Shown piece by piece: positions 1,521-62,712 of a DNA stretch of 64,000 nucleotides (within the stretch, counting starts at the first letter, position 1; each line of letters opens with the position of its first letter). Position numbers and translations under genes: made by a program. The DNA is taken from contig CP070722.1 in NCBI GenBank assembly GCA_020350785.1, positions 3,684,241-3,748,240 on the forward strand, given 5' to 3'. Source of the stretch: Gemmatimonadota bacterium. GTDB taxonomy: Bacteria > Gemmatimonadota > Gemmatimonadetes > Palauibacterales > KS3-K002. The notes under the pieces were generated by a model, which saw only the letters and a list, made by a program, of their open reading frames with translations, did no database searches and was not told the DNA's origin.

Positions 1521-1685
1521 GTGCTTGACGAGACTTTGCTGGAAATCCTCGTTTGCCCGAAGTGCAGCGGTGAGCTGGAATACAGGCCGGAGGAAACGTC
1601 CCTCTTGTGCCACGCCTGCCGTTTGCGCTACAATATTGAAGACGACATTCCAGTGATGCTAATCGATGAAGCCGAACCTTTCTAA
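1521..1685 (+). CDS. Trm112/UPF0434-family small zinc-ribbon-like protein (54 aa). Below the ORF-track length cutoff.
   Basis: GTG at 1521 immediately after an in-frame TAA. Translation VLDETLLEILVCPKCSGELEYRPEETSLLCHACRLRYNIEDDIPVMLIDEAEPF matches the Trm112 (DUF343) pattern LLxILxCPxCxG...Y...L.C..C...Y.I.DGIP.ML. Stop TAA 1683-1685. Overlaps next gene by 20 nt. Confidence 0.65.
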   Translation: MLDETLLEILVCPKCSGELEYRPEETSLLCHACRLRYNIEDDIPVMLIDEAEPF

Positions 1686-6553: not shown

Positions 6554-6658
6554 GCAACCGGGTCGCGGAGGGGCCTTGAGGGCGGAGAGGCTGGGGTCAG
6601 AGAGGTTGACCGGTTGGGGGGGTTCGGGATATCTTTGCGTGGCCGAGTGGGGAGTCAG

Positions 6659-6747: not shown

Positions 6748-7858
6748 ATGGCTGTGGCAACCGAGTTGACTGTGCTCAAGGACCTCCATCGGCGTGTGGA
6801 GGAGCTCAGGAGGTACCTTTGACATTGAACAGAAGAAGGCGCGGACCGACGATCTGGAAAGATTGACGGCTGGCCCGCGCTTTTGGGAAGACGCTGACCG
6901 GGCGCGAGCCGTCATGCAGGAGCTGAACGACCTGAAAGGCTGGCTCGAGCCGTGGGACGGGCTTCGGCGACGCTCTGCTGATCTGATGGAGCTGGGCGAG
7001 CTGATCGATGTCGAGGGCGGCGATGACATGGAGGAGGAGTTCCGCCGCGAGGTGGAGGCATTGGTCAGGGACGTGGACGACCTGGAGTTCAGGGCCATGC
7101 TGCGGGGCGCCGACGCGGAGCGCGATGCGCTGGTGACCATCCACCCGGGTGCTGGAGGCACCGACTCCCAGGACTGGGCCGAGCTGCTCATGCGCATGTA
7201 CACGCGCTGGGCGGAGTCACATGGATTTGACGCGGCCGTCCTGGATCTGGTGCCGGCCGAAGAGGCCGGGATCAAGTCGGTGACCCTGGAGATTCGAGGC
7301 CGCTTCGCCTACGGATACCTTCAGGCGGAGAAGGGGATTCACCGCCTCGTCCGGATTTCGCCGTTCGATCAGCAGGCTCGTCGCCATACTTCGTTCGCCT
7401 CGGTATTCGTCTACCCGGTGGTTGATGACGCCGTGGAGGTGGAGGTCAGCCCGGAGGACTTGCGTATCGATACCTACCGCGCCTCAGGCAAAGGCGGCCA
7501 ACACGTGAACAAGACGGACTCGGCGGTCCGAATCACCCATATTCCAACCGGCATCGTGGTCTCTTGCCAGCAGGAGCGCAGCCAACATCGCAACAAGAAC
7601 ACGGCGATGAAGATGCTGAGGGCGGCGCTCTATGAGAAAGCGATGGAGGAGCGGCGGCGCGAGCGCGAGAAGATCGACGCAACCAAGACCGAGATCGCTT
7701 GGGGCAACCAGATACGCTCGTATATCTTCCAGCCTTACACGCTGGTCAAGGACCATCGGACCGAAATCGAGAAGACGGATGTCCAGCGGGTGATGCAAGG
7801 CGAGATAGACGACTTCATTATCGGCTACCTCAAGGAATTCGGAAACCAGCTGGCATGA
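6748..7858 (+). CDS. prfB: Peptide chain release factor 2, expressed via programmed +1 ribosomal frameshift at codon 25 (CTT TGA C at 6817-6823)
   Basis: Frame-0 ATG 6748 encodes MAVATELTVLKDLHRRVEELRRYL, then in-frame TGA 6820-6822. AGGAGG lies 3 nt upstream of CTT. The +1 frame continues (ORF track 6794..7858) with RF2 motifs SPF and GGQ (GGQHVNKTDSAVR). Confidence 0.9.
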
Positions 7859-9366
7859 CCGAGACCGGGGAGGCTCAGCACGTCATTCGGGCTCGGCGCG
7901 AGAAGCTCCGGCAGCTGCGGGAGCTGGGCGTCGAGCCCTACTGTTATCGCTACGAGCCGAACAGCACGGCCGCAGCCGCGATTCAGGCTTTCGAGGCGGC
8001 GGGCGATGACGGGGTCGAGACCCGACTGGCTGGACGCCTGCGTTCATTCCGGCCACATGGTAAGACCTCGTTCGGCCACCTCGAGGATCGCAGTGGCAAG
8101 ATCCAGATCTATTTCCGCGCGGATGTTCTGGGTGAGGCCGGCTACGAGCTGGTGAAGCTGCTGGACCTGGGTGACTGGGTCGGGGTTGAGGGCGCCCTTT
8201 TCCGCACGCGCACGGGAGAGATCACCGTGCGTGCCGATACGGTACAGCTGCTGGCCAAGACCGTACGGCCACTGCCTTATGGCAAGGAGGAGACGGACGA
8301 GGGCGGCGACACGGTCGTACACGGCGGATTCGCAGATGTGGAGAGCCGCTATCGCCAGCGCTATGCGGATCTCGCCGTCAATCCGGAGGTGCGTGACCTG
8401 TTCCTCACCCGCAGCAGGGTCGTGCAGGAGATCCAGCGGTTCCTGGACGCGCGGGGGTTCCTGCCCGTCGAGACTCCTATTCTGCAGCCAATCTACGGCG
8501 GTGCCACGGCCAACCCCTTCAAGACGTACCATCGCGCACTGGACACGGAACTGTACCTGCGGATTGCCGACGAGCTCTACTTGAAGCGTCTGATCGTCGG
8601 AGGCCTGGAGCGGGTCTACGAGATCGGCAAGGTCTTTCGCAACGAGGGGATCGACCGAACCCACAATCCCGAGTTCTCGATGCTGGAACTCTACCAGGCC
8701 TATGCCGACTACGGTGACATGATGGATCTCACCGAGTCGCTGGTGCACGAGGTCGTCGTGCGGGTTAGCGGGTCGTCGCGCGTGGTCTATCAGGGCGAGG
8801 AAATCGATTTCGAGCCCCCCTGGCCACGGCTCGCCTGGTACGAGGCCTTGGAGAGGCACGGCGATGTCCGACGATCGGAACTGCAGGGGGGCGCCCTGCG
8901 CGAGGCGGCGCTCTCGGCGGGTGTCGAGGGGGCCGATGACAAGGGACGCGCGGCGCTTCTCGATGGGCTGTTCAAGGCCCGCGTGGAAGAGCACTTGAGA
9001 GGGCCGCTCATCATCTACGATTACCCGGTGGAGTTAAGTCCCTTGGCCAAGCACAAGCGCGATGGCGATAAGGAGCTGACCGAGCGCTTCGAGGTCTTCG
9101 TCGCCGGCCACGAGATCGCTAACGCCTTCAGCGAACTGAACGACCCGCTAGAGCAGAGGGAACGCTTCGAGGCGCAAGCGCGTATGCGTGAAGAGGAGGG
9201 TTGGGAGGAGGCTCATCAGATCGATGACGATTACATCTCCGCCCTCGAGTACGGTTTGCCTCCCACCGGCGGGATGGGTCTGGGGATCGACCGCTTGGTC
9301 ATGCTGCTGACGGGTCGAGCTTCGATTCGGGAGGTCATCCTCTTCCCGACGCTGAGGCCGGAGTAA
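7855..9366 (+). CDS. lysS: Lysine--tRNA ligase (class II)
   Basis: ATG 7855 overlaps prfB stop (ATGA). Class II aaRS motifs, anticodon-binding OB fold. Conserved prfB-lysS gene order. Confidence 0.92.
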   Translation: MTETGEAQHVIRARREKLRQLRELGVEPYCYRYEPNSTAAAAIQAFEAAGDDGVETRLAGRLRSFRPHGKTSFGHLEDRSGKIQIYFRADVLGEAGYELVKLLDLGDWVGVEGALFRTRTGEITVRADTVQLLAKTVRPLPYGKEETDEGGDTVVHGGFADVESRYRQRYADLAVNPEVRDLFLTRSRVVQEIQRFLDARGFLPVETPILQPIYGGATANPFKTYHRALDTELYLRIADELYLKRLIVGGLERVYEIGKVFRNEGIDRTHNPEFSMLELYQAYADYGDMMDLTESLVHEVVVRVSGSSRVVYQGEEIDFEPPWPRLAWYEALERHGDVRRSELQGGALREAALSAGVEGADDKGRAALLDGLFKARVEEHLRGPLIIYDYPVELSPLAKHKRDGDKELTERFEVFVAGHEIANAFSELNDPLEQRERFEAQARMREEEGWEEAHQIDDDYISALEYGLPPTGGMGLGIDRLVMLLTGRASIREVILFPTLRPE

Positions 9367-9369
9367 GTC

Positions 9370-10704
9370 ATGGGTCTCGAGCTACACATCGCGTTCCGCT
9401 ATCTCTCCGTGAAGCGTTGGTGGCATTGGCTTATTGTCGTCGCCTTCGTGGCTCTCTCGCCGCTCTGGATCATAGCTGCCTTTATCGTCCTGGCCGTTGC
9501 GTCAGAACGACTGGCCGATATCTCTTCTCGGGCAGCCAGCCTGATCATCACGATAATTGCGATCGGAGGCATCTACCTGGGGGTCGCGGCCCTGATCGTG
9601 GTAATCGGGGTGATGTCGGGCCTTCAGACCGAGGTTCGCGATCGGATTCTGGGCACGAACCCGCACATCATGATGCTGACCTACGGCGATGAGCTCAGGT
9701 TCGAAGACTGGGAGGGGCCACTTGAGGCCGCACGGGCAGACCCGGACGTGACGATTGGAGAACCGTTTGTCTATACGCAGTCGCTCGTCTTCAAGCGAGT
9801 GCACTACCAGCAGGGCCTGGCGCTGCGCGGGATCAGTCAAGACGCGACCGAACGATTGGGCGACCAGACCCTTGTCGGTGATTGGAACTTCAACGACACC
9901 GGATCCGGCCTGCCGGGCCTGGTGTTGGGCTTTCGGCTGGCCGGGCGCCTGCAAGCGGGCCCTGGCGACACGGTGAACTTGATCTCGGGCCAGGGCGCAG
10001 AACTGACGCCGGCGGGCTTTATCCCGAAGTTCAAGAAATTCGAGGTGGTCGGACTCTTCAGGAGTGGAATGTTCGAGTACGACAACCAGATGGCCTACAG
10101 TTCCCTGGAAGCGGCCCAGGATCTCGTGGGCTTGGATGATGCGGTGACCGGATTGGCGTTCTGGGTAAAGGACCCTTGGAAGGCCGATGAAGTGGCGGCG
10201 CGCCTCTCCCAGACGCTGGGCTATCCCTACTATCTCCGGGACTGGAAGGTGACGAACGAAGGGCTGTTCAATGCGCTGAAGCTGGAGAAGATGGGTATGG
10301 CGCTCGTGCTGGCGCTCATCGTAATCGTCGCTGCCTTCAACATCGTCTCCACCTTGATCATGGTGGTGGCGGACAAGACTCGCGAGATCGGGATCCTCCG
10401 GTCCATGGGGATGACGTCACGTCGGGTTCTCAACGTGTTCATGCTGCAGGGCCTGATCATCGGAGTTGCCGGAACGATGCTGGGATTGGTAGGAGGTTTG
10501 GCCCTGAGTTGGGCGATCGACTACTTCAACCTCATAGCATTGCCGGGGGACGTCTACCTGATCAGCGAGATCCCGATAATACTCAACCCGCTTGATATCG
10601 CCTGGATCGTGGCTGCTGGCATCTTCATATCGCTGCTCGCGACGGTCTATCCCTCGCACCTGGCCGCGCGACTCACCCCGGTCGAGGCGATTCGCCATGA
10701 GTAG
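9370..10704 (+). CDS. Lipoprotein-release ABC transporter permease, LolC/LolE family (FtsX-like, MacB-type periplasmic domain)
   Basis: N-terminal FRYL motif, large periplasmic domain, C-terminal FtsX 3-TM module. An extra hydrophobic segment precedes TM1. Confidence 0.8.
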   Translation: MGLELHIAFRYLSVKRWWHWLIVVAFVALSPLWIIAAFIVLAVASERLADISSRAASLIITIIAIGGIYLGVAALIVVIGVMSGLQTEVRDRILGTNPHIMMLTYGDELRFEDWEGPLEAARADPDVTIGEPFVYTQSLVFKRVHYQQGLALRGISQDATERLGDQTLVGDWNFNDTGSGLPGLVLGFRLAGRLQAGPGDTVNLISGQGAELTPAGFIPKFKKFEVVGLFRSGMFEYDNQMAYSSLEAAQDLVGLDDAVTGLAFWVKDPWKADEVAARLSQTLGYPYYLRDWKVTNEGLFNALKLEKMGMALVLALIVIVAAFNIVSTLIMVVADKTREIGILRSMGMTSRRVLNVFMLQGLIIGVAGTMLGLVGGLALSWAIDYFNLIALPGDVYLISEIPIILNPLDIAWIVAAGIFISLLATVYPSHLAARLTPVEAIRHE

Positions 10705-11458
10705 CCAGGGGCGGTCCGAGCGAGCGGGGAAGTACCAGCCTTCGGAACGGCCGATCTTGGTGGCCGAGAACTTGCACAAATCCTTCCTGGACAGCGACGG
10801 CTCGGATCTGCCGATTCTCAAGGGGCTGCATCTGGAGGTCCGGGTCGGCGAGGTCGTCGCCGTAATAGGCCCGAGCGGGGCGGGGAAGAGCACGATGCTG
10901 CACCTTCTGGGCGGCCTGGACCGTCCCAGTGGGGGAGAGGTCTATTTGGAGGGGCAGCCGCTCTCCGGCTTGGATGAGCAGTCTTTGGCCCAGGCTCGTA
11001 ACTCTCGAATTGGCTTCGTGTTCCAGTTTCACCATCTGTTGCGGGAGTTCAGCGCGCTTGAAAATATCATGCTGCCGCTTTTGATTGGAAACGTGGAGCG
11101 CTCCCAAGCGCAGGCCCGTGGCGAAGCGCTGCTGGGCGCTGTAGGCCTGGAGCGGCGGGGGGGACACAAGCCGCCCCAGTTATCCGGAGGCGAGCGGCAG
11201 CGCGTGGCGGTGGCGCGAGCATTGGCGAACGAGCCTCTCGTTCTCTTGGCCGACGAGCCTTCGGGCAATCTCGATGATCAAACGGCCGAAGGGCTCCACG
11301 ATCTGTTCTTCCGGCTCCGGGATGAGCGCGATTTCGCGATTGTGCTCGTGACGCATAATAGAGAGTTCGCGAGCCGGGCCGACCGAGTCCTCTGGCTGCA
11401 CGACGGCCAGCTCCACCCCGTCTCTTTGTCGATGGCGGAGCATGAGGCGGTACCGTAA
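10697..11458 (+). CDS. lolD: Lipoprotein-release ABC transporter ATP-binding protein
   Basis: Walker A GPSGAGKST, ABC signature LSGGERQRVAVARAL, Walker B LLADEPSGNLD. Start overlaps lolC by 8 nt. Confidence 0.85.
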   Translation: MSSQGRSERAGKYQPSERPILVAENLHKSFLDSDGSDLPILKGLHLEVRVGEVVAVIGPSGAGKSTMLHLLGGLDRPSGGEVYLEGQPLSGLDEQSLAQARNSRIGFVFQFHHLLREFSALENIMLPLLIGNVERSQAQARGEALLGAVGLERRGGHKPPQLSGGERQRVAVARALANEPLVLLADEPSGNLDDQTAEGLHDLFFRLRDERDFAIVLVTHNREFASRADRVLWLHDGQLHPVSLSMAEHEAVP

Positions 11459-11961
11459 TGCTGTGCGATAACTGTGGGAAGAACGAGGCAGAGGTCCATC
11501 TGACGCAGATTGTGGACAACGAGATGACCACGGTCCATCTCTGTCCGAGTTGTGCGGCCGAGAAGGGACTGGATGCGGGTGGCGGCAAGAATCTGCCTCT
11601 CACCGACTTTCTTGCCCAGATGGGCCAAGCGGCGATCGCCGACGAAGAAGCCACGGGTGTGGAGCCGTGTTCATACTGCCACACGACGGTCGATGACTTC
11701 CGGCGAACGGGGCGCCTCGGTTGCCCGCATTGCTACTCGGTTTTCGAGTCCCAACTCCGTGCAATTTTGAGGCGCATTCACGGATCGACTTATCACCTGG
11801 GCAAGGTCTATGTGCCGCCGGCCAGTGAGGCGGCGGAGCGCAGCGCGCGGCTGTCCGGGCTGCGGCGCAAGCTGCAGCGCGCCGTGGAGGCGGAGGACTT
11901 CGAGCGGGCCGCGGTCATCCGCGACCAGATCCGCGAGCTGGAGACAACGGCGGACCGATGA
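11458..11961 (+). CDS. mcsA: McsA-like activator of protein-arginine kinase (four CxxC zinc-finger pairs + UVR motif)
   Basis: CDNC...CPSC and CSYC...CPHC pairs. C-terminal UvrB/UvrC-type motif LQRAVEAEDFERAAVIRDQIRELE. ATG shares 1 nt with lolD stop (TAATG). Stop overlaps mcsB start. Confidence 0.7.
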   Translation: MLCDNCGKNEAEVHLTQIVDNEMTTVHLCPSCAAEKGLDAGGGKNLPLTDFLAQMGQAAIADEEATGVEPCSYCHTTVDDFRRTGRLGCPHCYSVFESQLRAILRRIHGSTYHLGKVYVPPASEAAERSARLSGLRRKLQRAVEAEDFERAAVIRDQIRELETTADR

Positions 11962-13052
11962 GGAGACTAGACCTGGCTTCGACGCCGGACTTCGGCCTCA
12001 GTTGGCTCGACGCTACTGGCCCCGACAGCGATATCGTGCTCTCCACGCGAGTGCGCATCGCCCGCAATCTGCAGGGGTATCCTTTCTCGATCCGCGCCAA
12101 GCCAGCCGATCGAGCCGCCATTCTGGCGACGGTGCGGGAAGCGGTGGACCGCATGCCACCTCTAGCTGACGGCGTCATTCTGGAGCTGGATACGCTGGAG
12201 GCGCGAGGGCGCCAGCTCCTGCTGGAGCGGCACTTGGTCAGCAGGGAGTTGGCTGGCGCCGGGGGAGCAGACAGTCCCTCTTCTGCCGCGCTGGTGTCCT
12301 CATTGGCCGAGCCCGTCGGGTTGATGATAAACGAAGAGGATCACCTGCGCCTGCAAAGCCTGACGAGCGGCTTCGGCCCGCGGAAGACATGGCGGCTGGT
12401 GGATTCCCTCGACGAGGATCTGGGGAGCGCGCTTCCCTTCGCCTTCCACCACGAGTTTGGCCACCTGACGTCATGTCCTACGAATTGCGGAACAGGGTTG
12501 CGAGCGTCGGTGCTGATACACCTCCCCGGCTTGGTCCTGACGAAGGAAATCAACAAGGTGCTTCAGGGGATAACGCAGGTGGGCCTCACCTTCCGCGGCC
12601 TGTATGGGGAGGGCTCCGAGGTCATCGGAAACCTGTTTCAGGTATCGAACCAGACCACCCTGGGTAAGAGCGAGGAGGACCTGATCGACCACTTGCACAA
12701 GATCGTCGGTCAAGTCGTGGAGTATGAGCGTCAGGCTCGCTCGGTGCTGTTGCGTGACGCTCCCAACGTCATCGAGGATAAGGTTTGGCGGGCCTACGGG
12801 TTGCTGCGGCACGCGCGCTCCTTAGGGTTCGACGAGATGATGAACCTGCTCTCGGGCGTTCGCCTGGGGCTGTCGCTGAAACTTCTATTAGGGCCTAGTG
12901 TATTTGTGTTGAATCGGATAATGATATTTGCTCAGAATGCGCACCTGGAGGAGGCAAGCGCCGGAACGCTCGCCGTCGGGGAGCGTGACTTCCAGCGCGC
13001 CAGCCACGTACGGGCGGCTCTGGCGGAAGCGGAGCGAGCCGCAGACAGATAG
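11958..13052 (+). CDS. mcsB: Protein-arginine kinase McsB (ATP:guanido phosphotransferase family)
   Basis: Phosphagen-kinase active-site signature CPTNCGTGLRASVLIHLPGL. ~364 aa. ATGA overlap with mcsA. Confidence 0.85.
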   Translation: MRRLDLASTPDFGLSWLDATGPDSDIVLSTRVRIARNLQGYPFSIRAKPADRAAILATVREAVDRMPPLADGVILELDTLEARGRQLLLERHLVSRELAGAGGADSPSSAALVSSLAEPVGLMINEEDHLRLQSLTSGFGPRKTWRLVDSLDEDLGSALPFAFHHEFGHLTSCPTNCGTGLRASVLIHLPGLVLTKEINKVLQGITQVGLTFRGLYGEGSEVIGNLFQVSNQTTLGKSEEDLIDHLHKIVGQVVEYERQARSVLLRDAPNVIEDKVWRAYGLLRHARSLGFDEMMNLLSGVRLGLSLKLLLGPSVFVLNRIMIFAQNAHLEEASAGTLAVGERDFQRASHVRAALAEAERAADR

Positions 13053-13105
13053 AGCGAGGGGGACCCTGCGGGGGGAGAGCGGATCACGGGCGTGAAGAGG
13101 GTGTG

Positions 13106-15571
13106 ATGAATTACAATTTCACCGATCGGGTGCGGAAGGTCCTGGCGATGGCACGCGAGGAAGCCATTCGTCTGCAGCATGACTACGTCGGGACCGAACA
13201 TATCCTGCTGGGCTTGATCCGCGAAGGTGAAGGTGTCGCAGCGGCGGTACTGATGAACCTGAATGTCGACCTCGATCAGGTGCAGGAGCGGACCGAGGAG
13301 CAGGTTCGTAAAGGCAAGGCCGGTGCGACGATGGGCGAGCTCCCCTATACGTCGCGAGCGAAGAAGGTGTTGGAGTTCGCCGTGGCGGAAGCTCGGGAGC
13401 TGAGCCACAGCTACGTGGGCACCGAGCATTTGCTGTTGGGACTGCTGAGAGAAGAGAAGGGGGTTGCGGCGCAGGTCTTGGAGTCACTGGGGGTGACGCT
13501 GGAGGCGGCGCGTGACCAGACGCTGAAGCTCTTGGGTACCGATGTGCCGACGTCGGGCGCGAGCGCCAGCGCGGGGGCCAGTAAGGAGAAGAAGTCGAAG
13601 ACTCCGGCTCTGGATCATTTCTGCCGTGACCTGACCGAGTTGGCGCGGGGTGGCGAGCTCGATCCGACGATCGGTCGCGAGCAGGAGATCGAGCGTGTGA
13701 TGGAAATCCTGTCCCGGCGTAAGAAGAACAACCCGGTCTTGATCGGGGAGCCCGGGGTGGGGAAGACGGCGATCGTCGAGGGTTTAGCCCAGCTGATAGC
13801 GCGCGGTGAGGTCGCGGACAGTCTGAAGGGTCACCGGGTTCTGGCGCTGGACATGGCGGCCGTGATCGCGGGCACGAAGTATCGTGGTCAGTTCGAGGAG
13901 CGCCTCAAAGCGGTCATGAACGAGATTGCCCAGAACCGGGATGTAATACTGTTCATCGATGAGGTGCACACGCTTGTTGGCGCCGGGGCAGCGGAAGGGG
14001 CGATTGACGCGTCCAACATGCTGAAGCCTTCGCTGGCCCGTGGCGAGCTGCAGTGCATAGGCGCTTCGACGTTGAACGAATATCGCAAGTACATCGAGAA
14101 GGATGGAGCTCTCGAGCGCCGTTTTCAGACGGTCATGGTGGAACCGCCCACTGTGGATGAGACGATTGATATCCTTAGCGGGTTGAAGAAGCGCTACGAG
14201 GACCACCACAAGGTCTTGTTGCCGCAGGACACGCTGGTCAACGCGGCCAAGCTGTCCGAGCGGTACATCACCGACCGATATCTGCCGGACAAGGCCATCG
14301 ACGTGATCGATGAGGCGTGCGCCCGCGTCCATCTATCGACACAGGTGCCGCCGCCTGAGGTCGCCGACCTTCAGGAGGACCTGAAGCGAATCGGGCAGCT
14401 CAAGGACGAGGCCATACGGGACCAGGACTTCGAGCGAGCGGCCGAGCTTCGCGACAGGGAGCGTGAGCAGCAATCGGAGATCCGACGACGCCGCGAGGAA
14501 TGGGAGGAGGAGCGCCGCACCTTCCGGCCGACGATAACCGAGGACGATGTGGCGTTCATCGTTTCGCGCTGGACTGGGATTCCGGTGACGCGGCTGCAGG
14601 AGGGTGAGACCGATCGGTTGCTTCGGATGGAAGAGGAGTTGCACAGGCACGTCGTCGGCCAAGACGAGGCGATCACCGGCATCAGCCGTGCCATCCGGCG
14701 GAGCCGCGCGGGCCTCAAGGATCCGAATCGCCCCATCGGCTCGTTCATCTTCAGCGGCCCGACGGGCGTGGGCAAGACCGAGTTGGCGCGGGCGCTGGCG
14801 CGTTTTCTGTTCGCAGATGAGAACGCCCTGATCCGTGTCGACATGTCGGAGTACATGGAGAAGTTCTCGGTGAGCCGGTTGATCGGGGCTCCTCCCGGTT
14901 ACGTGGGTTACGAGGACAGCGGCGCCCTGACCAAATCGGTGCGCCATAAGCCTTACAGCGTGGTTCTGTTTGACGAGATCGAGAAAGCCCACCCGGATGT
15001 CTTCAATATTCTGCTGCAAATACTCGACGACGGCAGAATCACAGATAACTACGGTCGCGTTATCGATTTCAAGAACACGATCCTGATCATGACCTCGAAC
15101 GTTGGAGCTCGTGATATCGCCAAAGGCGGAGGTCTCGGATTTCACCAGCAGGACGACAAGGCCAGTTACGATGACATGGCTCGGCGCGTCAAAGAGGAGA
15201 TTCAGAGGGTCTTCAATCCGGAATTCTTGAACCGGCTCGATGATGTGATCGTGTTCCACCCGCTCTCCAAGGAGCACATCCGGCAGATCGTCGACGTGCT
15301 GATGCGAGATGTGCGTTCCAGATTGGAAGAGGAGTCACTGAAGCTACAGCTGACCGACCCTGCGGTGGCGTTCCTGGTGGAGCATGGATATGATGCGACC
15401 TACGGTGCCCGCCCGCTGCGGCGCGCGATTCAGCGCTACGTCGAGGATCCTCTGTCGGAGAAGATCCTGATGGCGGAGTTGACGCCGGGCGACATTATCG
15501 AGGTCGACGTATCAGCGGACGGAGAGAAGCTCGAGTTTCGAGTGCTCTCGTCCTCATCGTTCGCCACGTGA
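13106..15571 (+). CDS. clpC: ATP-dependent Clp protease ATP-binding subunit ClpC (two AAA+ modules, Clp-N repeats, UVR-containing M-domain)
   Basis: N-terminus [46 protein letters not shown] closely parallels Bacillus ClpC. Walker [10 protein letters not shown] and [12 protein letters not shown] motif in linker. GTG 13103 is an alternative start. Confidence 0.92.
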
Positions 15572-18000
15572 GGTTCTACGGTCGAATCCTGTTAACAACG
15601 GCCCTCGTCGCGTTCGTCGCGAGGGCCGCGCCGTTGTCGGCTCAGACGCAGACGACGGACCAGGGCCTGCTTCGCATCGATTCGCTCAAGGTCACTGGCA
15701 ACGTTCGCCTGGCCACTCCCGTTGTCCTATCCGACTTTGGCATTCGCCCTGGTGATGTCGTAACCAGCAACAAGATCCAGCGCGGTATCCAGCGCCTCTA
15801 TGCCTCGCAGCAGTACGAGGATGTACGTGTGTACGCCGTCGGTGGCGACGGCGGCGAGGTCACCTTGATCGTGGAGGTCGTGGAGCGGCCCTACATCGTC
15901 AATTACCAGTTCCGCGGCCTGGAGCACATCGGTGCTGGGGGCATCCGCGATACGGCTGGCCTGAGTTCGGACGCGCCGCTCGACCCGTCCGCTGTCCACA
16001 GCGCATCGTACCATATTCGCAGCGAGCTTTCGCGCAGAGGCTATGTCAGGGCTCACATAGATACCACCTTTCAGCCGACGGCACGAGAGGGCGAATACGT
16101 GCTGGTGTTTAAGGTGACGGAGGGTCGCCGCCTGGTAGTAGCCGGAATCGAATTCGAAGGCAATCAGAGGGTCGGCGCGCACGACTTGATCGGAGCCATG
16201 CGGATCAAGCCCGAGGGCTTCTGGTGGTGGCAGACGGGCGAATTTCGGGAGGACGACTACGCGCTGGACCTCGAAGCGAACCTTATCGAGTTTTATGGCT
16301 CGCGAGGATATCTGGATTTTCAGGTACTGGGCGACACGATGATCGTGGACCCGACAAGCGGGAAGACGAAGATCGTCATCAATGTGGATGAGGGCCGTCA
16401 ATATCGGATAGCCAACTTCGAGGTCGAAGGCAACTCGCACTTTCCGACCGAACTTATCGAAGCCCGCTTCGACCCGCGCAGCAGATCGCTTCTGTCGCGC
16501 CTGCCCCTCGTGGGCGGCGGAGGTGGCGAGGGCGACCCGGTCTTCGATACTCACCAATGGCAGGAAGCGACTGATCAGGTTCGGCAACTCTATCGTAACG
16601 CGGGATTCCTCTATTCTCAGGTCGAACCGGTCGTCGAACGGTTGCCGGACGGGGAAGACGGACAGCCGCGGGTCGGTCTGAGATGGCGGATCGTGGAGAA
16701 CCAACAGGCGTACGTTAGCCTGGTGAACATCGGGGGTAACACGAACACTCACGAGCGTGTGGTTCGTGAGCGGCTCCTGATGATTCCCGGGGATGTCTAC
16801 GCTGAGGACCGCCTGATTTCGAGTTTTCAGAGCATTCAGGGCCTCGGTTTCTTCGACCCGCTCCCGCCGAACGAGGCCGTCGATATTCGCCCCAACGAAG
16901 AACAGAACATCGATATCACGTTCAGGGTCAGTGAGAGACAGACCGGGAACGTCAACTTCGGAGCCTCCGTATCTCCCTCGACGGGGTTGGCGGGATTCAT
17001 CGGCTACCAGCAGCCCAACCTTTTCGGGCAGGCCAAGTCGGGGAGTTTCCGTTGGGTTTTCGGGAGCCGTTCGAACGATATCGAGCTGTCATACACGGAT
17101 CCCGCCATATTCGGCAGCCGCAACTCGGCGGGGGTCAGCCTGAGAAACTCACGCGATCGCTTCGGTTTCATAGGGTTGGGACGCCGCCGCCAGATCGGCG
17201 GCAGCGTATTCTTTGGAACGCCCTTTTTGGGTGCCCGCTGGACGCGGCTGACGATACGCTACTCTCTGTTTCGGGACGAGTTTGATTCAGACGAGGAGGA
17301 GCTGGATCTGGAGCAGCGACAACTGCTCAACGTCGGCACCCGCAGCTCCGTCGAGTTTCGGGTTACGCGTGACCGGCGCAATCACCCGTTGTTCCCGACG
17401 AACGGCAGCCGCAATACCGTCGGTTTGCAGTTCGTAGGGGGGGTCCTTGGAGGAGATGGCGACTACAGAAAGCTGAGCTTCGAGAGCGAGTGGTTCACGC
17501 CGATCGCCAACTTGCGTTCGGATCCGACGCAGACCCCGATCGACCTTGCTTTGGGTCTGAGTCTGAAAGGTGGCGTGATCGTCGGCGACAATCCGTTCTT
17601 CTTGGAGCGTTTCTACATGGGTGGTGTACAGTATGGTCCGCCTCTGCGGGGCTACGATGAGCTGTCGATCACTCCGTTTGGGCATGTTCCGAGAGATGCT
17701 CCCGGTTTCAGCCAGTTGGACAGGGTGGGTGAATCCTTCTTCGGCATGACGGCTAACATCGGCATGAACCTGGGTGGCACGGTGTACGTGAACGCATTCT
17801 ACGACGCGGGGAACGTTTGGGCGTCTTCATTCGGATTCAATCCAACCGATCTTTTGCGTGGGTTCGGTATCGGCGTGAGCGTAGTGACGCCGGTGGGCCC
17901 GCTCGGCCTCGACTACGCGTATGGTATTGATCGCCGCGACGTTTTCGGCCGACCGGATCCCGGCTGGAAGTTACATTTCCGATTTGGCCAGATATTCTGA
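15568..18000 (+). CDS. bamA: Outer membrane protein assembly factor BamA (POTRA repeats + C-terminal 16-strand barrel)
   Basis: Signal peptide, 810 aa, POTRA-like N-terminal repeats, C-terminal barrel ending ...HFRFGQIF. GTG start overlaps clpC stop (GTGA). Confidence 0.9.
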   Translation: MRFYGRILLTTALVAFVARAAPLSAQTQTTDQGLLRIDSLKVTGNVRLATPVVLSDFGIRPGDVVTSNKIQRGIQRLYASQQYEDVRVYAVGGDGGEVTLIVEVVERPYIVNYQFRGLEHIGAGGIRDTAGLSSDAPLDPSAVHSASYHIRSELSRRGYVRAHIDTTFQPTAREGEYVLVFKVTEGRRLVVAGIEFEGNQRVGAHDLIGAMRIKPEGFWWWQTGEFREDDYALDLEANLIEFYGSRGYLDFQVLGDTMIVDPTSGKTKIVINVDEGRQYRIANFEVEGNSHFPTELIEARFDPRSRSLLSRLPLVGGGGGEGDPVFDTHQWQEATDQVRQLYRNAGFLYSQVEPVVERLPDGEDGQPRVGLRWRIVENQQAYVSLVNIGGNTNTHERVVRERLLMIPGDVYAEDRLISSFQSIQGLGFFDPLPPNEAVDIRPNEEQNIDITFRVSERQTGNVNFGASVSPSTGLAGFIGYQQPNLFGQAKSGSFRWVFGSRSNDIELSYTDPAIFGSRNSAGVSLRNSRDRFGFIGLGRRRQIGGSVFFGTPFLGARWTRLTIRYSLFRDEFDSDEEELDLEQRQLLNVGTRSSVEFRVTRDRRNHPLFPTNGSRNTVGLQFVGGVLGGDGDYRKLSFESEWFTPIANLRSDPTQTPIDLALGLSLKGGVIVGDNPFFLERFYMGGVQYGPPLRGYDELSITPFGHVPRDAPGFSQLDRVGESFFGMTANIGMNLGGTVYVNAFYDAGNVWASSFGFNPTDLLRGFGIGVSVVTPVGPLGLDYAYGIDRRDVFGRPDPGWKLHFRFGQIF

Positions 18001-18035: not shown

Positions 18036-18587
18036 TTGGTGTCACACAAGATCAGCGCGGTACTGGCGGCGGCGGCGTTGGCCGCATTGGGATACCAGGG
18101 TGTATCCCAGCCCAATACGATCAAGCTTGCCTACATTGACTCGAACGAGGTCATAGCCCAGGCGCCCGGCGCAGCCGAGGCACAGGCGACGTTCGAACGG
18201 GAGATGGCGCGCTGGCGCAGCGAGGCGCAGGCGCTTGCCGATTCGCTGCAGGCTATGATCACGTCCTACGAGCAACAGCAGGTCATGCTCTCTCCCGAGG
18301 TGCGGCAGCAGCGTCAGGGGGAGATCCAGCGCAAACGTCTCGAGTACCAGCAGCGCGCCGTCGACCTCGATCAGGTCGCGCAGCGCCGGCAACAAGAATT
18401 GGTCGCACCGATCTACGAGAAGGTGACTCGTGTATTGGTAGATTTGCGGGCCGAGCAGCAGTACACAATGATTTTCGATGCTGCCGCGGGTGCTCTGATA
18501 GCTGCGGATACGACCTTGAACATTACCGATCTCGTTATCGCCCGGCTGCAGGCTGCGGAGGCAGCGGGTGGGGAAACCGGCAACTAG
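18036..18587 (+). CDS. skp: Periplasmic chaperone Skp/OmpH family
   Basis: Signal peptide, ~180 aa, Q/E/R-rich coiled-coil, canonical position after bamA. GTG 18039 (better spaced from GGAGAGG) is the likely start. Confidence 0.8.
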   Translation: MVSHKISAVLAAAALAALGYQGVSQPNTIKLAYIDSNEVIAQAPGAAEAQATFEREMARWRSEAQALADSLQAMITSYEQQQVMLSPEVRQQRQGEIQRKRLEYQQRAVDLDQVAQRRQQELVAPIYEKVTRVLVDLRAEQQYTMIFDAAAGALIAADTTLNITDLVIARLQAAEAAGGETGN

Positions 18588-18624
18588 CGCTTGGCAGCAG
18601 CACCGCCGCCAAGCATTCCTGATC

Positions 18625-18665
18625 GCGCCCACGGGCAGGTGAGGCACCGTGGGCGCTCTTTCTGT
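18625..18665 (+). terminator. Strong hairpin + U-rich tract between skp and lpxD (partial terminator/attenuator candidate)
   Basis: GCGCCCACGG-(12 nt loop)-CCGTGGGCGC 10-bp GC stem followed by TCTTTCTGTGG. A second hairpin GCTTGGC...GCCAAGC lies just upstream. Confidence 0.45.
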
Positions 18666-18698
18666 GGTCTTGCACCTTGAATGCTCGAAGAGGACAAT

Positions 18699-19745
18699 AT
18701 GAGCAATGGCATTACGGTTGGTGAACTGGCCAGGCACCTGGGCGCCGAAATAGTCGGTGATCCGAAGGGCATGGTGAGGGGCGCGGCGCCGATCGAGTCA
18801 GCCCGGGAGGCGGAGTTGAGTTTTCTTGCTCGACGCAAGTACCTCCCATATCTTGACGGCACTCAGGCCACAGCGGTCATCGTAGGGCGCGATCTGGGGA
18901 AGGTGGAAAAGCGGCCCCAGGAAACGGCTTTGCTCTTGGTCGATGATGCACATCGCGCCCTCGCTCAGGCGTTGGCGCTTCTCTACCCGGCCGAGCAGAA
19001 GAAATCTGAGATTGCCCCGACCGCGGTTGTCGGTCCAAGAGTCGAGCTGGGCAAGGGCGTGACGATCGGTCCCTATACGGTGGTCGGCGCGGGGGCGAAG
19101 CTGGGCGACGGAGTACGGGTCGGAGCGCAGTGTGCGATCGGCGAAGGCTGCGAGCTGGGAGCCGAGACGGAACTCAAGGATCAGGTGGTTCTGTATCGGG
19201 GCTCGCGAATCGGTGCACGCTGCATCATCCACAGCGGCGCACGGATCGGTGTAGATGGCTTTGGCTACGTCCTCGAAGGAAGCGAGCACCGCAAAGTTCC
19301 GCAGGTGGGACGTTGCGTGATCGAGGACGACGTCGAGATTGGCGCCAACACCTGTATCGATCGTGGCTCCATAGGTGAGACGCGCATCGGCGCGGGAACG
19401 AAGATCGACAACCTGGTGCACATCGCCCACAACGTGCGCGTGGGTCGTGGCTGCATCATCGTGGCGCAGGTCGGAGTCGCCGGAAGCACTATCATCGGGA
19501 ACGGCGTGGCGCTTGCCGGTCAGGTCGGAATTATCGGACATCTGGAGATCGGCGACGGCGCGCGGATCGCCGCGCAGGCGGGAGTCAGTCACGACGTTCC
19601 GGCCGGCGAGACGTGGTTCGGATATCCGGCAAGGCAACGAACGCAGGTGATGCGCGCCAACGCGGCCTTCCTAAAGTTGCCGGAGCTCCTGCGGCGCGTC
19701 CAGCGAATCGAGGACACTCTCCTACCGGAGGGTGAAGCGAAGTAG
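18699..19745 (+). CDS. lpxD: UDP-3-O-(3-hydroxyacyl)glucosamine N-acyltransferase
   Basis: N-terminal MSNGITVGELARHLGAEIVGD, long left-handed beta-helix hexapeptide repeats. ATG 18681 is an in-frame alternative start. Confidence 0.88.
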   Translation: MSNGITVGELARHLGAEIVGDPKGMVRGAAPIESAREAELSFLARRKYLPYLDGTQATAVIVGRDLGKVEKRPQETALLLVDDAHRALAQALALLYPAEQKKSEIAPTAVVGPRVELGKGVTIGPYTVVGAGAKLGDGVRVGAQCAIGEGCELGAETELKDQVVLYRGSRIGARCIIHSGARIGVDGFGYVLEGSEHRKVPQVGRCVIEDDVEIGANTCIDRGSIGETRIGAGTKIDNLVHIAHNVRVGRGCIIVAQVGVAGSTIIGNGVALAGQVGIIGHLEIGDGARIAAQAGVSHDVPAGETWFGYPARQRTQVMRANAAFLKLPELLRRVQRIEDTLLPEGEAK

Positions 19746-19758
19746 AACTCAGCGGGCC

Positions 19759-21060
19759 ATGTCTTCGAGGAGGAGGACACGCTTGAAGCAGCAGACGCTG
19801 ACAAGCGCGATCGAGCTTGAAGGAAAGGGACTCCATACGGGCGAATCCGTGAGGATGGTGATACGCCCGGCGCCAGATGATTCGGGCATCGTCTTCCGGC
19901 GAGTCGATCTCGATGGGTGTCCCGAGATTTCCGCCAGTGTGGACAACGTGGTGAACATGGAGCGCGGGACGGTGCTGGAGCGCGACGGCGCGCGCGTTCG
20001 GACGACGGAGCACCTACTTTCGGCTTTGGCGGGGGTGGGGATCGATAACGCCGTCGTCGACTTGACAGGCGAGGAGCCCCCCGCGGCGGATGGCAGTGCT
20101 GCCAGTTTCGTCGAGCTTCTGCCGGATTCCGTGATCGAGCGGCAGGAGAGTGAGGCGCCCGTTTGGACATGCGAAGAGCCGTTCGTCGTCGAAGAGGGCT
20201 CGGCACGCTACGCGGTTGTGCCCGACTCGACGCTCAGGATATCGGCATCGATCGAGTTCGAACACCCTCTAATCAGTCGCCAACACGCTTCCTACGTCAT
20301 CGATCCGGGGATTTACCGAGAGGCGGTTGCCCGGGCACGGACGTTCGGGTTTCTGCATGAGGCTGAGCAGTTGCGGGCCAGCGGCCTGGCGCGCGGGGCC
20401 GACCTAGGCAACACGGTCGTTCTGACGCCCGATGGACTATACGCCGGCGTTGAGTTGCGGTTCGCGGACGAATTCGTTCGCCACAAGATATTGGATATAA
20501 TCGGCGACCTGGCGCTCACCGGAGTACGGATTCACGCTCAGATCGTGGCGGAGCGTCCCGGGCACCGTGGAAACGTCGCCCTGGCTCGCGAGATAACTGA
20601 GCGAACACGGAGGCAACGATCGGCGCGGCGGGTGGACATCGAGCAGATCTTCCAGATCTTGCCGCACCGTTACCCCTTCTTGCTGGTCGATCGGGTCATC
20701 GAGTATGAGCGTGCCAAACGGATTGTCGGAATAAAGAACGTCACGATCAACGAACCCTTCTTCATCGGGCATTTCCCGGGCTTGCCGATCATGCCTGGAG
20801 TCCTGATCATCGAAGCGATGGCGCAAGTAGGTGGCTTGCTGTTGATGGATTCGGTGGAGAATCCGGAAGAGAAGATCGTCTATTTCATGTCGTTGGACAA
20901 TGTGAAGTTCCGTCGCCCGGTTACGCCGGGCGATCAGCTAGTATTCGAGCTGGAGATGCTTCAGATGCGGCGGTCGGTTTGCCGGATGAAAGGAGTTGGG
21001 CGGGTGGACGGAACGGTTGTGGCTGAGGCGGAGATGATGGCACAGGTGGTGGACCGATGA
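19759..21060 (+). CDS. lpxC/fabZ: Bifunctional UDP-3-O-acyl-GlcNAc deacetylase / 3-hydroxyacyl-ACP dehydratase (LpxC-FabZ fusion)
   Basis: N-terminal LpxC region ([21 protein letters not shown]...[18 protein letters not shown]). C-terminal FabZ hot-dog domain ([13 protein letters not shown]...[27 protein letters not shown]). GTG 19732 is an alternative start. Confidence 0.9.
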
Positions 21061-36689: not shown

Positions 36690-36693
36690 GACG

Positions 36694-46534: not shown

Positions 46535-46616
46535 CAGCGATATTCGAGGTTTGACCGAAATCCCGGGGCGTGTAGATTTGGTCGGGCGCAAATCAGGAAG
46601 GAGGAGTCCGAGAACA

Positions 46617-59545: not shown

Positions 59546-59556
59546 CGCCCCTTTCC

Positions 59557-62153: not shown

Positions 62154-62154
62154 C

Positions 62155-62709: not shown

Positions 62710-62712
62710 AGC

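What the first reader, a model, noticed from the sequence alone, without database searches (positions are those of the whole stretch)
11458..15571. Gram-positive-type McsA/McsB/ClpC phospho-arginine proteolysis module in an LPS-bearing diderm, without CtsR
McsB carries the phosphagen-kinase signature CPTNCGTGLRASV. McsA has four CxxC pairs plus a UVR motif. ClpC has a Bacillus-like N-terminus and a UVR-containing M-domain. In Firmicutes these form ctsR-mcsA-mcsB-clpC under CtsR repression. Here no CtsR gene or CtsR operator (GGTCAAA direct repeat) is visible. The module is instead translationally coupled upstream to lolD and downstream to bamA. A pArg-tagging degradation system apparently wired to outer-membrane biogenesis would be a non-canonical regulatory context.
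Basis: partly seen in the sequence, partly recalled or inferred. Interest (0 to 1): 0.55.

Follow-up and report, generated by a model that had tools for sequence, protein, structure and literature searches.

The report
Arginine-kinase/ClpC module inside envelope operon
A Gemmatimonadota genome carries an intact McsA/McsB/ClpC phospho-arginine protein-degradation module with no CtsR repressor nearby. It sits between lipoprotein-export (lolCD) and outer-membrane-assembly (bamA-skp-lpx) genes, in a gene order conserved across several diderm phyla, though a functional link to the envelope is unproven.

Summary
Window 11458-15571 encodes McsA (four CxxC pairs plus UVR), a full-length McsB protein arginine kinase, and a true ClpC. 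The ClpC has both phospho-arginine glutamates, a short UVR M-domain and an LGF ClpP-docking loop. Stop/start overlaps join lolD to mcsA, mcsA to mcsB and clpC to bamA. No CtsR gene or operator occurs in the window or in 86 related diderm loci.

The module is not exotic. NCBI and JGI already name these proteins. McsB is common in Gemmatimonadota, Latescibacterota, Eisenbacteria, Fibrobacterota, Ignavibacteria, Verrucomicrobiota, Planctomycetota, Omnitrophota and Dependentiae. The literature already records McsAB/ClpC in Chlamydia and some Proteobacteria.

What appears new is the context. The string lysS-lolC-lolD-mcsA-mcsB-clpC-bamA-skp-lpxD-lpxC/fabZ is invariant in Gemmatimonadota: lolD lies upstream in 42/44 loci and bamA downstream in 36/36. 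It recurs in Latescibacterota, Eisenbacteria and unnamed MAGs, and partly in Fibrobacterota, Ignavibacteria and Verrucomicrobiota.

Best reading: an ordinary CtsR-independent phospho-arginine/ClpCP quality-control system, co-transcribed within an ancient housekeeping/envelope operon. Functional wiring to outer-membrane biogenesis is possible but unsupported beyond synteny. Moderate interest; a new member of a known kind.

The parts
11458..11961 (+). mcsA: activator of the protein arginine kinase (167 aa). It has two zinc-finger modules (four CxxC pairs) and a C-terminal UVR/coiled-coil.
   Evidence: Translation. Pfam UVR at residues 131-162. NCBIfam McsA NF053706 at 128 bits over residues 1-164, below the 210 cut-off. 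JGI names close homologues 'protein arginine kinase activator'. The start ATG overlaps the lolD stop by 1 nt.
11958..13052 (+). mcsB: protein arginine kinase (364 aa). It has a phosphagen-kinase-like catalytic domain without the N-terminal phosphagen-kinase domain, plus the McsB C-terminal dimerisation domain with a phospho-arginine receptor site.
   Evidence: PF00217 at 201 bits. NCBIfam protein-arginine-kinase equivalogs. PF27454 McsB_C is recorded for the 100%-identical database protein P0001. Full-length alignment to 8wtb/6tv6/6fh1. NEEDH 125-129, C173, N176, R182, R213 and E218 are invariant in 25 diverse homologues, and R343/D344/R347 match B. subtilis R337/D338/R341.
13106..15571 (+). 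clpC: class I AAA+ unfoldase (821 aa). It has a two-repeat N-domain with both phospho-arginine pockets, two AAA modules, a short UVR M-domain and an LGF ClpP-docking loop.
   Evidence: Pfam Clp_N x2, AAA, AAA_lid_9, UVR, AAA_2 and ClpB_D2-small. A 1014-bit single-stretch alignment with B. subtilis ClpC, with GTEH glutamates E31/E107 matching E32/E106 and L677-G678-F679 matching VGF. The role of E32/E106 is taken from PMC12583610. The ATG 13106 start (MNY...) is conserved in relatives.
9370..10704 (+). lolC/E-type lipoprotein-release permease (context, upstream)
   Evidence: Pfam MacB_PCD + FtsX. The best NCBIfam hit is TIGR02212 lolCE at 326 bits, below the 362 cut-off.
10697..11458 (+). lolD-type ABC ATPase (context). 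Its stop codon overlaps the mcsA start.
   Evidence: The best NCBIfam hit is TIGR02211 LolD at 269.5 bits, below the 307.75 cut-off. Sequence at the junctions. It lies directly upstream of mcsA in 42/44 Gemmatimonadota loci. The modal gap is -1 nt.
15568..18000 (+). bamA (context). Its GTG start overlaps the clpC stop by 4 nt.
   Evidence: TIGR03303 at 371 bits, above the 297 cut-off. Five POTRA domains plus Omp85. Junction sequence. The same overlapping start is called in the relative L001. bamA follows clpC in 36/36 Gemmatimonadota loci.
18036..21866 (+). skp, lpxD, lpxC-fabZ fusion and lpxA (context; continuation of the same-strand string)
   Evidence: Pfam OmpH. Pfam LpxD/Hexapep, LpxC+FabA and Hexapep+Acetyltransf_11.
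6749..9366 (+). prfB (with a +1 frameshift site) and lysS. This is the head of the same-strand string and is preceded by the only sigma-70-like promoter match.
   Evidence: Pfam PCRF/RF-1 and tRNA-synt_2. Promoter-like site at 6606-6635. Sequence.

Best explanation
Window 11458-15571 encodes a complete, apparently functional phospho-arginine proteolysis module.

Proposed mechanism (inferred by homology, not tested):
1. McsA activates McsB.
2. McsB phosphorylates arginines on aberrant or unfolded cytosolic proteins.
3. The phospho-arginine mark docks into the two pockets of the ClpC N-domain. This switches ClpC on, and substrates are threaded into ClpP, which is encoded elsewhere.

Regulation differs from Bacillota. 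There is no CtsR repressor or operator at the locus. The three genes are instead embedded, with overlapping stop/start codons, in a long same-strand string: prfB-lysS-lolC-lolD-mcsA-mcsB-clpC-bamA-skp-lpxD-lpxC/fabZ-lpxA-...-lpxB-...-lpxK. Expression is therefore most likely constitutive and coupled to growth, together with these housekeeping and envelope genes.

This gene order is ancient and inherited. It is invariant in Gemmatimonadota and shared, wholly or partly, with Latescibacterota, Eisenbacteria, Fibrobacterota, Ignavibacteria and Verrucomicrobiota.

Shown here: gene identities, key residues, junctions, local absence of CtsR, and conservation of synteny. Inferred: kinase and protease activity, co-transcription, and general quality control as the role.
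For: Family assignment.

Functional residues:
- McsB catalytic and ATP-site residues are invariant, and the phospho-arginine receptor site R343/D344/R347 is kept.
- ClpC keeps the E32/E106 equivalents and the LGF loop.

Junction overlaps.

Operon features:
- On the + strand between 6.7 and 21 kb, the only terminator-like matches are weak hairpins inside clpC and bamA (14782-14804, 17039-17051).
- The single sigma-70-like site lies upstream of prfB.
- The mcsB-clpC spacers are short and not conserved, typically little more than a ribosome-binding site, which fits read-through transcription.

CtsR:
- There is no operator in the window.
- No CtsR homologue occurs in the window or in any of 86 diderm loci. 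The same query and Pfam both find CtsR directly upstream of mcsA in Bacillota loci L085 and L088.

Synteny:
- Annotated neighbourhoods agree with tblastn maps of 87 loci.
- Counts are: Gemmatimonadota lolD 42/44, lolC 39/39, clpC 42/42, bamA 36/36.
- Junction gaps are: the lolD/mcsA gap is exactly -1 nt in 24 of 47 Gemmatimonadota loci (my tally of the rows) and in the two Latescibacterota-type loci.
Against: - McsA and McsB score below NCBIfam's equivalog cut-offs (128 vs 210; 367.5 vs 385). They are therefore diverged from the characterised Bacillota proteins.
- The B. subtilis autophosphorylation arginines R190/R194, which staple the regulated octamer, are lysines here (K196/K200). The receptor-site S285 equivalent is F291. 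Oligomeric regulation may therefore differ.
- ClpP, a YwlE-type arginine phosphatase and any distal CtsR could not be looked for in the rest of the genome.
- No activity of a diderm McsAB has ever been shown (PMC11046695).
- Chlamydial ClpC was not stimulated by Bacillus McsAB in a chaperone assay, although it did need phospho-arginine casein for degradation (PMC10128030).
- Co-transcription is not demonstrated, and promoter rules for this phylum are unknown.
Confidence: 0.8

Rival explanations
1. The conserved position reflects real functional coupling. In this reading the phospho-arginine/ClpCP system is dedicated to, or enriched for, envelope biogenesis. It might clear unexported outer-membrane-protein and lipoprotein precursors from the cytosol. 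Alternatively it might set the levels of Lol/Lpx components (for example LpxC-FabZ), much as FtsH controls LpxC in E. coli.
For: - The order lolC-lolD-mcsA-mcsB-clpC-bamA-skp is kept across whole phyla and between phyla.
- The lolD-mcsA junction stays at -1 to +15 nt in Gemmatimonadota, Latescibacterota, Fibrobacterota and Eisenbacteria.
- The Latescibacterota-type loci L005 and L006 also carry lolA a few genes upstream.
- Verrucomicrobiota keep an ABC ATPase 43-49% identical to LolD one gene upstream of mcsA. One locus (L074) keeps lysS-lolC-lolD.
Against: - Synteny alone does not show function. The same string also holds prfB and lysS, which have no envelope role.
- No LolD-McsA or ClpC-BamA fusion proteins appear among the 120 closest McsA homologues.
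- The clpC-bamA junction is loose (-4 to more than 200 nt). bamA is absent after clpC in Ignavibacteria and Verrucomicrobiota.
- Planctomycetota, Dependentiae and Chlamydia carry mcsB (with mcsA, except in the Dependentiae locus) away from any of these genes.
- All three proteins look like ordinary cytosolic McsA/McsB/ClpC, with no extra domains.
Confidence: 0.15
2. The module is a horizontally acquired Bacillota cassette that landed by chance between two envelope operons, minus its ctsR gene.
For: - The canonical, characterised system is from Bacillota.
- The proteins align end to end with the Bacillus proteins.
- The Chlamydia authors suggested horizontal acquisition for their mcsAB.
Against: - The same insertion point is shared by every Gemmatimonadota locus with enough flank, and by other FCB phyla. 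Any transfer would therefore predate those phyla.
- McsB identity to Paenibacillus (45%) is no higher than to Verrucomicrobiota or Planctomycetota (41-46%). ClpC identity is 58% against 56-60%.
- GC content is flat across the module.
- No formal phylogeny was made, so an ancient transfer in either direction is not excluded.
Confidence: 0.04
3. The kinase is a small-molecule (phosphagen-type) guanidino kinase and/or the ATPase is a ClpB-like disaggregase that does not feed ClpP.
For: - The Pfam hit is the generic ATP:guanido phosphotransferase domain.
- NCBIfam ranks ClpB first for the ATPase, because it has no ClpC model.
Against: - The kinase has no N-terminal phosphagen-kinase domain.
- It has the McsB-specific C-terminal domain (PF27454) and matches McsB structures at E 1e-83 against 1e-26 for arginine kinases. 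It has an adjacent, overlapping mcsA.
- The ATPase matches ClpC in one stretch but ClpB in two, and is below the ClpB cut-off (1021 vs 1232 bits).
- It has the short UVR M-domain and the LGF ClpP loop that ClpB lacks.
Confidence: 0.01

Closest known systems
Bacillota class III heat-shock operon ctsR-mcsA-mcsB-clpC (B. subtilis, G. stearothermophilus, S. aureus)
   Same: - Same three proteins in the same order, with full-length homology.
- Catalytic residues conserved.
- McsB phospho-arginine receptor site R/D/R conserved.
- ClpC E32/E106 pockets, short UVR M-domain and ClpP loop conserved.
   Different: - No ctsR gene and no CtsR operator. Bacillota loci fetched here do have ctsR.
- The upstream neighbour is lolD and the downstream neighbour is bamA, instead of radA/disA.
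- The R190/R194 autophosphorylation sites are lysines, and S285 is F.
- Scores are below NCBIfam equivalog cut-offs.
Chlamydia trachomatis McsAB and ClpC (PMC10128030)
   Same: - A diderm with McsA, McsB and ClpC and no adjacent CtsR.
- Chlamydial ClpCP degrades phospho-arginine casein, so the degron logic works in a diderm.
   Different: - In Chlamydia mcsAB is a separate operon flanked by tRNAs and far from clpC.
- Here the three genes are contiguous and embedded in a lol/bam/lpx string conserved across phyla.
Mycobacterial ClpC1 (phospho-arginine-binding N-domain without a known McsB)
   Same: ClpC-type unfoldase with phospho-arginine pockets. The window protein matches 8a8u ClpC1 at 971 bits.
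   Different: Mycobacteria lack McsA/McsB. Here the kinase and its activator are encoded immediately upstream.
The conserved bamA-skp-lpxD-fabZ-lpxA-lpxB envelope cluster of Proteobacteria (my own knowledge)
   Same: The same downstream block is present here.
   Different: In the lineages found here the block is preceded by clpC-mcsB-mcsA-lolD-lolC-lysS. I am not aware of this being described. Literature searches for McsB with BamA or with Gemmatimonadetes found nothing relevant.

Membership tests
McsB protein arginine kinase | ATP:guanido phosphotransferase catalytic domain with NEEDH and CPTN.GTG.RAS motifs, and no N-terminal phosphagen-kinase domain | tested here: met
   PF00217 at 201 bits over residues 57-259, and no PF02807 hit. 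The motifs are invariant in 25 homologues.
McsB protein arginine kinase | C-terminal dimerisation domain carrying the phospho-arginine receptor site (B. subtilis R337, D338, R341, S285) | tested here: met
   PF27454 McsB_C on the identical database protein. The alignment to 8wtb runs to residue 355. R343/D344/R347 are kept, but the S285 position is F291.
McsB protein arginine kinase | Score above NCBIfam equivalog cut-off | tested here: not met
   NF002194 scores 367.5 against a cut-off of 385. NF053707 scores 352.7 against 500. The first is a near miss, and every hit is a protein-arginine-kinase model. NCBI nevertheless names the protein 'protein arginine kinase'.
McsB protein arginine kinase | Phosphorylates protein arginine residues | not testable with these tools
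   This needs a kinase assay or phospho-arginine proteomics. The literature states that the activity of Gram-negative homologues has never been identified (PMC11046695).
McsA kinase activator | Two zinc-coordinating modules (four CxxC pairs) followed by a UVR/coiled-coil, encoded directly upstream of mcsB | tested here: met
   C3/C6, C29/C32, C71/C74 and C89/C92. UVR at residues 131-162. 4-nt overlap with mcsB. NF053706 at 128 bits is below the 210 cut-off.
ClpC (as opposed to ClpB/ClpA) | Two-repeat N-domain with phospho-arginine glutamates (E32/E106), short single-motif M-domain with UVR, two AAA modules, and a ClpP-docking (V/L)GF loop | tested here: met
   Single-stretch 1014-bit alignment to B. 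subtilis ClpC. E31/E107 and L677-G678-F679 are conserved. UVR at residues 432-455. ClpB matches only in two stretches and below its cut-off, and ClpA is also below its cut-off.
CtsR regulon (class III heat shock) | ctsR gene at the head of the operon | tested here: not met
   tblastn and phmmer with Paenibacillus CtsR find nothing in the window or in 86 diderm loci. Pfam tables of the neighbourhoods lack PF05848, whereas Bacillota L088 has it. The rest of the genome was not searchable.
CtsR regulon (class III heat shock) | Tandem heptad operator (A/G)GTCAAA-N4-(A/G)GTCAAA near the promoter | tested here: not met
   0 matches in 64 kb with up to 3 mismatches.
LolCD(E) lipoprotein-release transporter (neighbour) | MacB-type permease plus ABC ATPase scoring as LolC/E and LolD | tested here: inconclusive
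   The best NCBIfam hits are LolCE (326 bits, cut-off 362) and LolD (269.5 bits, cut-off 307.75). Both are below cut-off. lolA lies in the same string in the Latescibacterota-type loci L005 and L006.
BamA (neighbour) | Five POTRA domains plus an Omp85 barrel, above the TIGR03303 cut-off | tested here: met
   371 bits against a cut-off of 297. POTRA x5 plus Omp85.

The most novel reading that the evidence does not exclude
The lolCD-mcsAB-clpC-bamA-skp-lpx string is an ancient envelope/proteostasis supra-operon of FCB-group bacteria, and partly of Verrucomicrobiota. In it, phospho-arginine tagging and ClpCP act as the cytosolic quality-control or dosage-control arm of outer-membrane biogenesis, for example by clearing unexported OMP and lipoprotein precursors or by tuning LpxC-FabZ or Lol levels. 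A corollary is that the Bacillota ctsR-mcsA-mcsB-clpC operon would be a derived arrangement that recruited CtsR, not the prototype.
Probability: 0.15. Interest if true: 0.75.

Novelty: new member of a known kind. Interest (0 to 1): 0.4.

Why it matters
Arginine phosphorylation as a degradation tag has been characterised almost only in Bacillota, where it is tied to the CtsR heat-shock repressor. This locus and its relatives show two things:
- The complete kinase/activator/unfoldase set is a standard component of several large, mostly uncultured diderm phyla.
- In those phyla it has been kept for a very long time in one fixed place, between the lipoprotein-export ATPase and BamA, without CtsR.

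At the least, this corrects the view that the system is Gram-positive-specific. It also offers cultivable organisms, such as Gemmatimonas species, in which CtsR-independent phospho-arginine proteolysis can be studied. If the conserved position reflects function, it would point to an unrecognised cytosolic quality-control arm of outer-membrane biogenesis.

Tried and rejected
1. CtsR operator search gave 0 hits.
2. A CtsR protein search with a real CtsR from locus L085 found nothing outside Bacillota.
3. I looked for Rosetta-stone fusions of McsA with LolD among the 120 closest McsA homologues. All were 159-185 aa with only a UVR domain. McsA-McsB fusions do exist, but they only confirm the known partnership.
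4. I looked for a conserved regulatory element in the mcsB-clpC spacer across 60 loci. The spacers are 6-180 nt and unrelated, mostly just a ribosome-binding site.
5. The sigma-70/terminator scan gave one promoter-like site upstream of prfB and no convincing internal terminators. The rules may not apply to this phylum.
6. I checked whether lysS adjacency also holds in Bacillota, as I recall for B. subtilis. The Bacillota loci fetched (L085, L088) do not show lysS nearby, so I dropped this as evidence.
7. Literature searches for McsB with Gemmatimonadetes or BamA returned nothing relevant.
8. No formal phylogeny, structure prediction or whole-genome search for ClpP, YwlE or CtsR was done. The first two were judged unnecessary for the verdict. 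The last is not possible with the tools, because only the 64-kb window is held.
9. The ClpB and phosphagen-kinase alternatives were rejected.

Full report
**What is at the coordinates**

The window is from a Gemmatimonadota metagenome-assembled genome. The McsB and McsA translations are 100% identical to NCBI proteins on a 4,094,497-bp contig, named 'protein arginine kinase' and 'UvrB/UvrC motif-containing protein'.

Gene map on the + strand:
- prfB: 6749-7858, with a +1 frameshift
- lysS: 7855-9366
- lolC: 9370-10704
- lolD: 10697-11458
- mcsA: 11458-11961
- mcsB: 11958-13052
- clpC: 13106-15571
- bamA: 15568-18000
- skp: 18036-18587
- lpxD: 18681-19745
- lpxC-fabZ fusion: 19732-21060
- lpxA: 21057-21866
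- then a Gfo/Idh/MocA oxidoreductase, lpxB, DUF374 and lpxK

On the - strand, 58103-63681 holds kdsD-lptC-lptA-like-lptB-rpoN. The organism clearly encodes the LPS, Bam and Lol machineries of a diderm.

**Checking the observation**

*McsA.* It has four CxxC pairs (C3/C6, C29/C32, C71/C74, C89/C92) and a UVR domain at residues 131-162. It aligns over residues 1-164 with NCBIfam McsA, at 128 bits, below the 210 cut-off.

*McsB.*
- It carries NEEDH (125-129) and SCPTNCGTGLRASV.
- It matches PF00217 at 201 bits.
- It hits only protein-arginine-kinase equivalogs in NCBIfam. The best is 367.5 bits against a cut-off of 385.
- It aligns over residues 14-355 with solved McsB structures at E about 1e-83. 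Phosphagen arginine kinases reach only about 1e-26 and cover only the catalytic domain.

*ClpC.*
- It aligns in a single stretch (1014 bits) with B. subtilis ClpC.
- ClpB aligns in two pieces and below its cut-off. This is the signature of the short ClpC M-domain, which here carries a UVR motif at 432-455.

*Junctions*:
- lolD/mcsA: TAATG (1-nt overlap)
- mcsA/mcsB: ATGA (4-nt overlap)
- mcsB-clpC: 53-nt gap
- clpC/bamA: GTGA (4-nt overlap)

The clpC start at ATG 13106 (MNY...) is conserved in relatives. Gene callers choose the same overlapping bamA start in an 81%-identical relative.

*CtsR.*
- The operator pattern has no match in 64 kb with up to three mismatches.
- A genuine CtsR taken from a Paenibacillus locus finds nothing in the window.
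- Pfam annotation of about 50 window ORFs shows no CtsR, no LMW-PTP (YwlE type) and no ClpP.

The limit is that only 64 kb of a 4.1-Mb genome can be inspected.

**Are the proteins likely to work as in Bacillus?**

*McsB.* In an alignment of 25 diverse McsB homologues the catalytic and nucleotide-site residues are invariant (R31, R33, E126, E127, D128, H129, C173, N176, R182, R213, E218).

The phospho-arginine receptor site of B. subtilis McsB is R337, D338, R341 and S285 (PMC8370763). It maps to R343, D344, R347 and F291 here, so three of four residues are kept.

The autophosphorylated R190/R194 staple the closed B. subtilis octamer, and R194K destabilises it. They map to K196/K200 here. The gated-octamer layer of regulation may therefore be absent.

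*ClpC.* It keeps both GTEH glutamates. E31 and E107 match E32 and E106, the crucial phospho-arginine determinants (PMC12583610). It also keeps the LGF loop at the position of the Bacillus VGF ClpP-docking loop, and both Walker A/B pairs.

Nothing in the sequences argues against a working phospho-arginine to ClpC to ClpP pathway. Activity itself is inferred.

**How unusual is a McsAB-ClpC module in a diderm?**

It is not unusual.
- The exhaustive representative search found 1,670 50%-identity clusters at E<=1e-30.
- Named members come from Gemmatimonadota, Latescibacterota, Handelsmanbacteria, Eisenbacteria, Fibrobacterota, Ignavibacteria, Verrucomicrobiota, Planctomycetota, Omnitrophota, Dependentiae and Bacillota.
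- The window's McsB is 45% identical to Paenibacillus McsB and 41-46% to PVC-group proteins. ClpC shows 58% against 56-60%. There is no sign of a recent Bacillota origin.
- A 2024 structural paper notes homologues in some Gram-negative Proteobacteria 'whose activity has never been identified' (PMC11046695).
- Chlamydia trachomatis has McsAB and a ClpC whose ClpCP complex requires phospho-arginine casein for degradation (PMC10128030).

'Gram-positive-type' therefore describes where the system was studied, not where it occurs.

**The genomic context is the interesting part**

I mapped the window's eleven proteins by tblastn onto 87 loci. Of these, 80 were species representatives from the genome scan and 7 came from exact-protein look-ups.

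| Lineage | What is conserved |
|---|---|
| Gemmatimonadota | lolD directly upstream of mcsA in 42/44 testable loci (the other two have 133- and 292-nt gaps); lolC precedes lolD in 39/39; clpC follows mcsB in 42/42; bamA follows clpC in 36/36. prfB-lysS lies upstream and skp-lpxD-lpxC/fabZ-lpxA downstream in nearly all. |
| Latescibacterota-type loci (L005, L006) | Full string, but without lysS and with fabZ rather than lpxD after skp; ftsK-lolA lie a few genes upstream. |
| Eisenbacteria (L056, L059) | Full string |
| Four unnamed MAGs (L057, L058, L066, L084) | Full string |
| Fibrobacterota (L054) | lysS-lolC-lolD-mcsA-mcsB, up to the contig end |
| Ignavibacteria | lysS-lolC-lolD-mcsA-mcsB-clpC, but no bamA |
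| Verrucomicrobiota | 9/10 have an ABC ATPase 43-49% identical to LolD one gene upstream. The intervening gene of about 1 kb is a class IV aminotransferase in L007. One locus (L074) keeps lysS-lolC-lolD. |
| Planctomycetota | Only mcsA-mcsB |
| Dependentiae | One locus has mcsB alone, next to secA |

Junction gaps:
- The lolD/mcsA junction is strikingly tight. The gap is exactly -1 nt in 24 of 47 Gemmatimonadota loci (my tally of the rows) and in both Latescibacterota-type loci.
- The gap is 0 in Fibrobacterota and 13-14 nt in Eisenbacteria.
- The clpC/bamA junction is looser, from -4 to more than 200 nt.

None of the diderm loci has a CtsR homologue within +/-10 kb. The two Bacillota loci have ctsR directly upstream of mcsA, which serves as a positive control.

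Literature searches for McsB with BamA or with Gemmatimonadetes returned nothing relevant. Within the held library, this conserved arrangement appears undescribed.

**Interpretation**

The best-supported reading has four parts:
- The module is an ordinary McsA-activated arginine kinase feeding ClpC/ClpP.
- It works as general protein quality control, as McsB does in Bacillus independently of CtsR (PMC8370763).
- It is not under CtsR.
- It is co-transcribed within a long housekeeping/envelope operon, and this arrangement is old and inherited within the FCB group.

Evidence for read-through:
- There is a chain of overlapping or near-abutting genes from prfB to lpxK.
- Only weak, intragenic terminator-like matches occur on that strand between 6.7 and 21 kb.
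- A single sigma-70-like site lies upstream of prfB.
- The mcsB-clpC spacers are short and non-conserved.

The rival reading is that the position reflects a functional tie to outer-membrane biogenesis. It rests on the depth of conservation and the tight lolD-mcsA junction. Arguments against it:
- The string also carries prfB and lysS.
- No LolD-McsA fusion was found.
- bamA linkage is lost in Ignavibacteria and Verrucomicrobiota.
- Other diderms keep the module elsewhere.

I put this rival at about 0.15. Recent horizontal acquisition from Bacillota, and misassignment as a phosphagen kinase or ClpB, are effectively excluded.

**Verdict**

The module is a new member of a known kind. It is already correctly named by annotation pipelines, and Chlamydia provides a precedent for a diderm without CtsR.

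The added value of this analysis is the finding that its placement between lolCD and bamA-skp-lpx is conserved across whole phyla. This makes a testable, if still weakly supported, hypothesis of envelope-linked phospho-arginine proteolysis.

Interest: 0.4.

Noticed in passing
window 6749-6830: prfB has the classical programmed +1 frameshift. A short ORF starts at ATG 6749 and ends ...AGGAGG TAC CTT TGA C, with the CTTTGAC shift site at about 6818-6824. The RF2 body continues in the +1 frame to 7858.
   Followed up: partly
L004 8001-9608 (P0122, 535 aa); P0125 cluster (537-556 aa); also L040: Some Gemmatimonadota encode McsA and McsB as one fused polypeptide, in the same lolD-...-clpC-bamA context. 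NCBI names one of them only 'UvrB/UvrC motif-containing protein'.
   Followed up: partly
window 11958-13052 (McsB residues 196, 200, 291): The B. subtilis autophosphorylation arginines R190/R194, which staple the closed octamer, are lysines here. The receptor-site S285 equivalent is phenylalanine. These positions vary widely among homologues, which suggests the gated-octamer mechanism is not universal.
   Followed up: partly
window 19732-21060: LpxC and FabZ are fused in one 442-aa ORF (Pfam LpxC at residues 20-289, FabA-like at 310-434). The fusion is kept in most related loci but is split in L004 and L045.
   Followed up: no
window 21874-22857: A Gfo/Idh/MocA oxidoreductase is conserved between lpxA and lpxB, here and in L001 and L002. 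It could be a GnnA-like enzyme for GlcN3N-type lipid A. That idea comes from memory and was not tested.
   Followed up: no
window 27907-30263: A bacillithiol biosynthesis gene bshC (Pfam BshC N- and C-terminal domains) is preceded by a SAM methyltransferase whose end overlaps it. This is another trait usually associated with Bacillota, found here in this diderm. The methyltransferase might be an N-methyl-bacillithiol synthase, which was not tested.
   Followed up: no
window 58103-63681 (- strand): This is the canonical kdsD-lptC-lptA-lptB-rpoN cluster. The LptA-like ORF (60735-62153) is unusually long at 472 aa and gives only weak LptD_N/OstA hits.
   Followed up: no
window ~48000: Gene orientation switches from + to - and GC skew changes sign at about 48 kb, where cumulative skew peaks. 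This could be a replication terminus-like point, or simply skew linked to the transcription strand.
   Followed up: no
L007, L068-L072, L074, L081 (Verrucomicrobiota): A gene of about 1 kb (a class IV aminotransferase in L007) is inserted between the LolD-like ATPase and mcsA. In most of these loci no lolC-type permease is detected next to the ATPase.
   Followed up: partly
L090 7591-11619 (Dependentiae): mcsB has no adjacent mcsA or clpC. It is preceded by an HDOD/HD-domain gene and lies convergent with secA.
   Followed up: no
window 1666-2706, 36556-38034, 45899-47210, 50780-53257: Several sizeable ORFs have no Pfam family. The 825-aa membrane-protein-like ORF in the glycosyltransferase cluster has only a faint YfhO hit. 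Some of the listed ORFs may be overlapping non-coding frames of this high-GC DNA.
   Followed up: no
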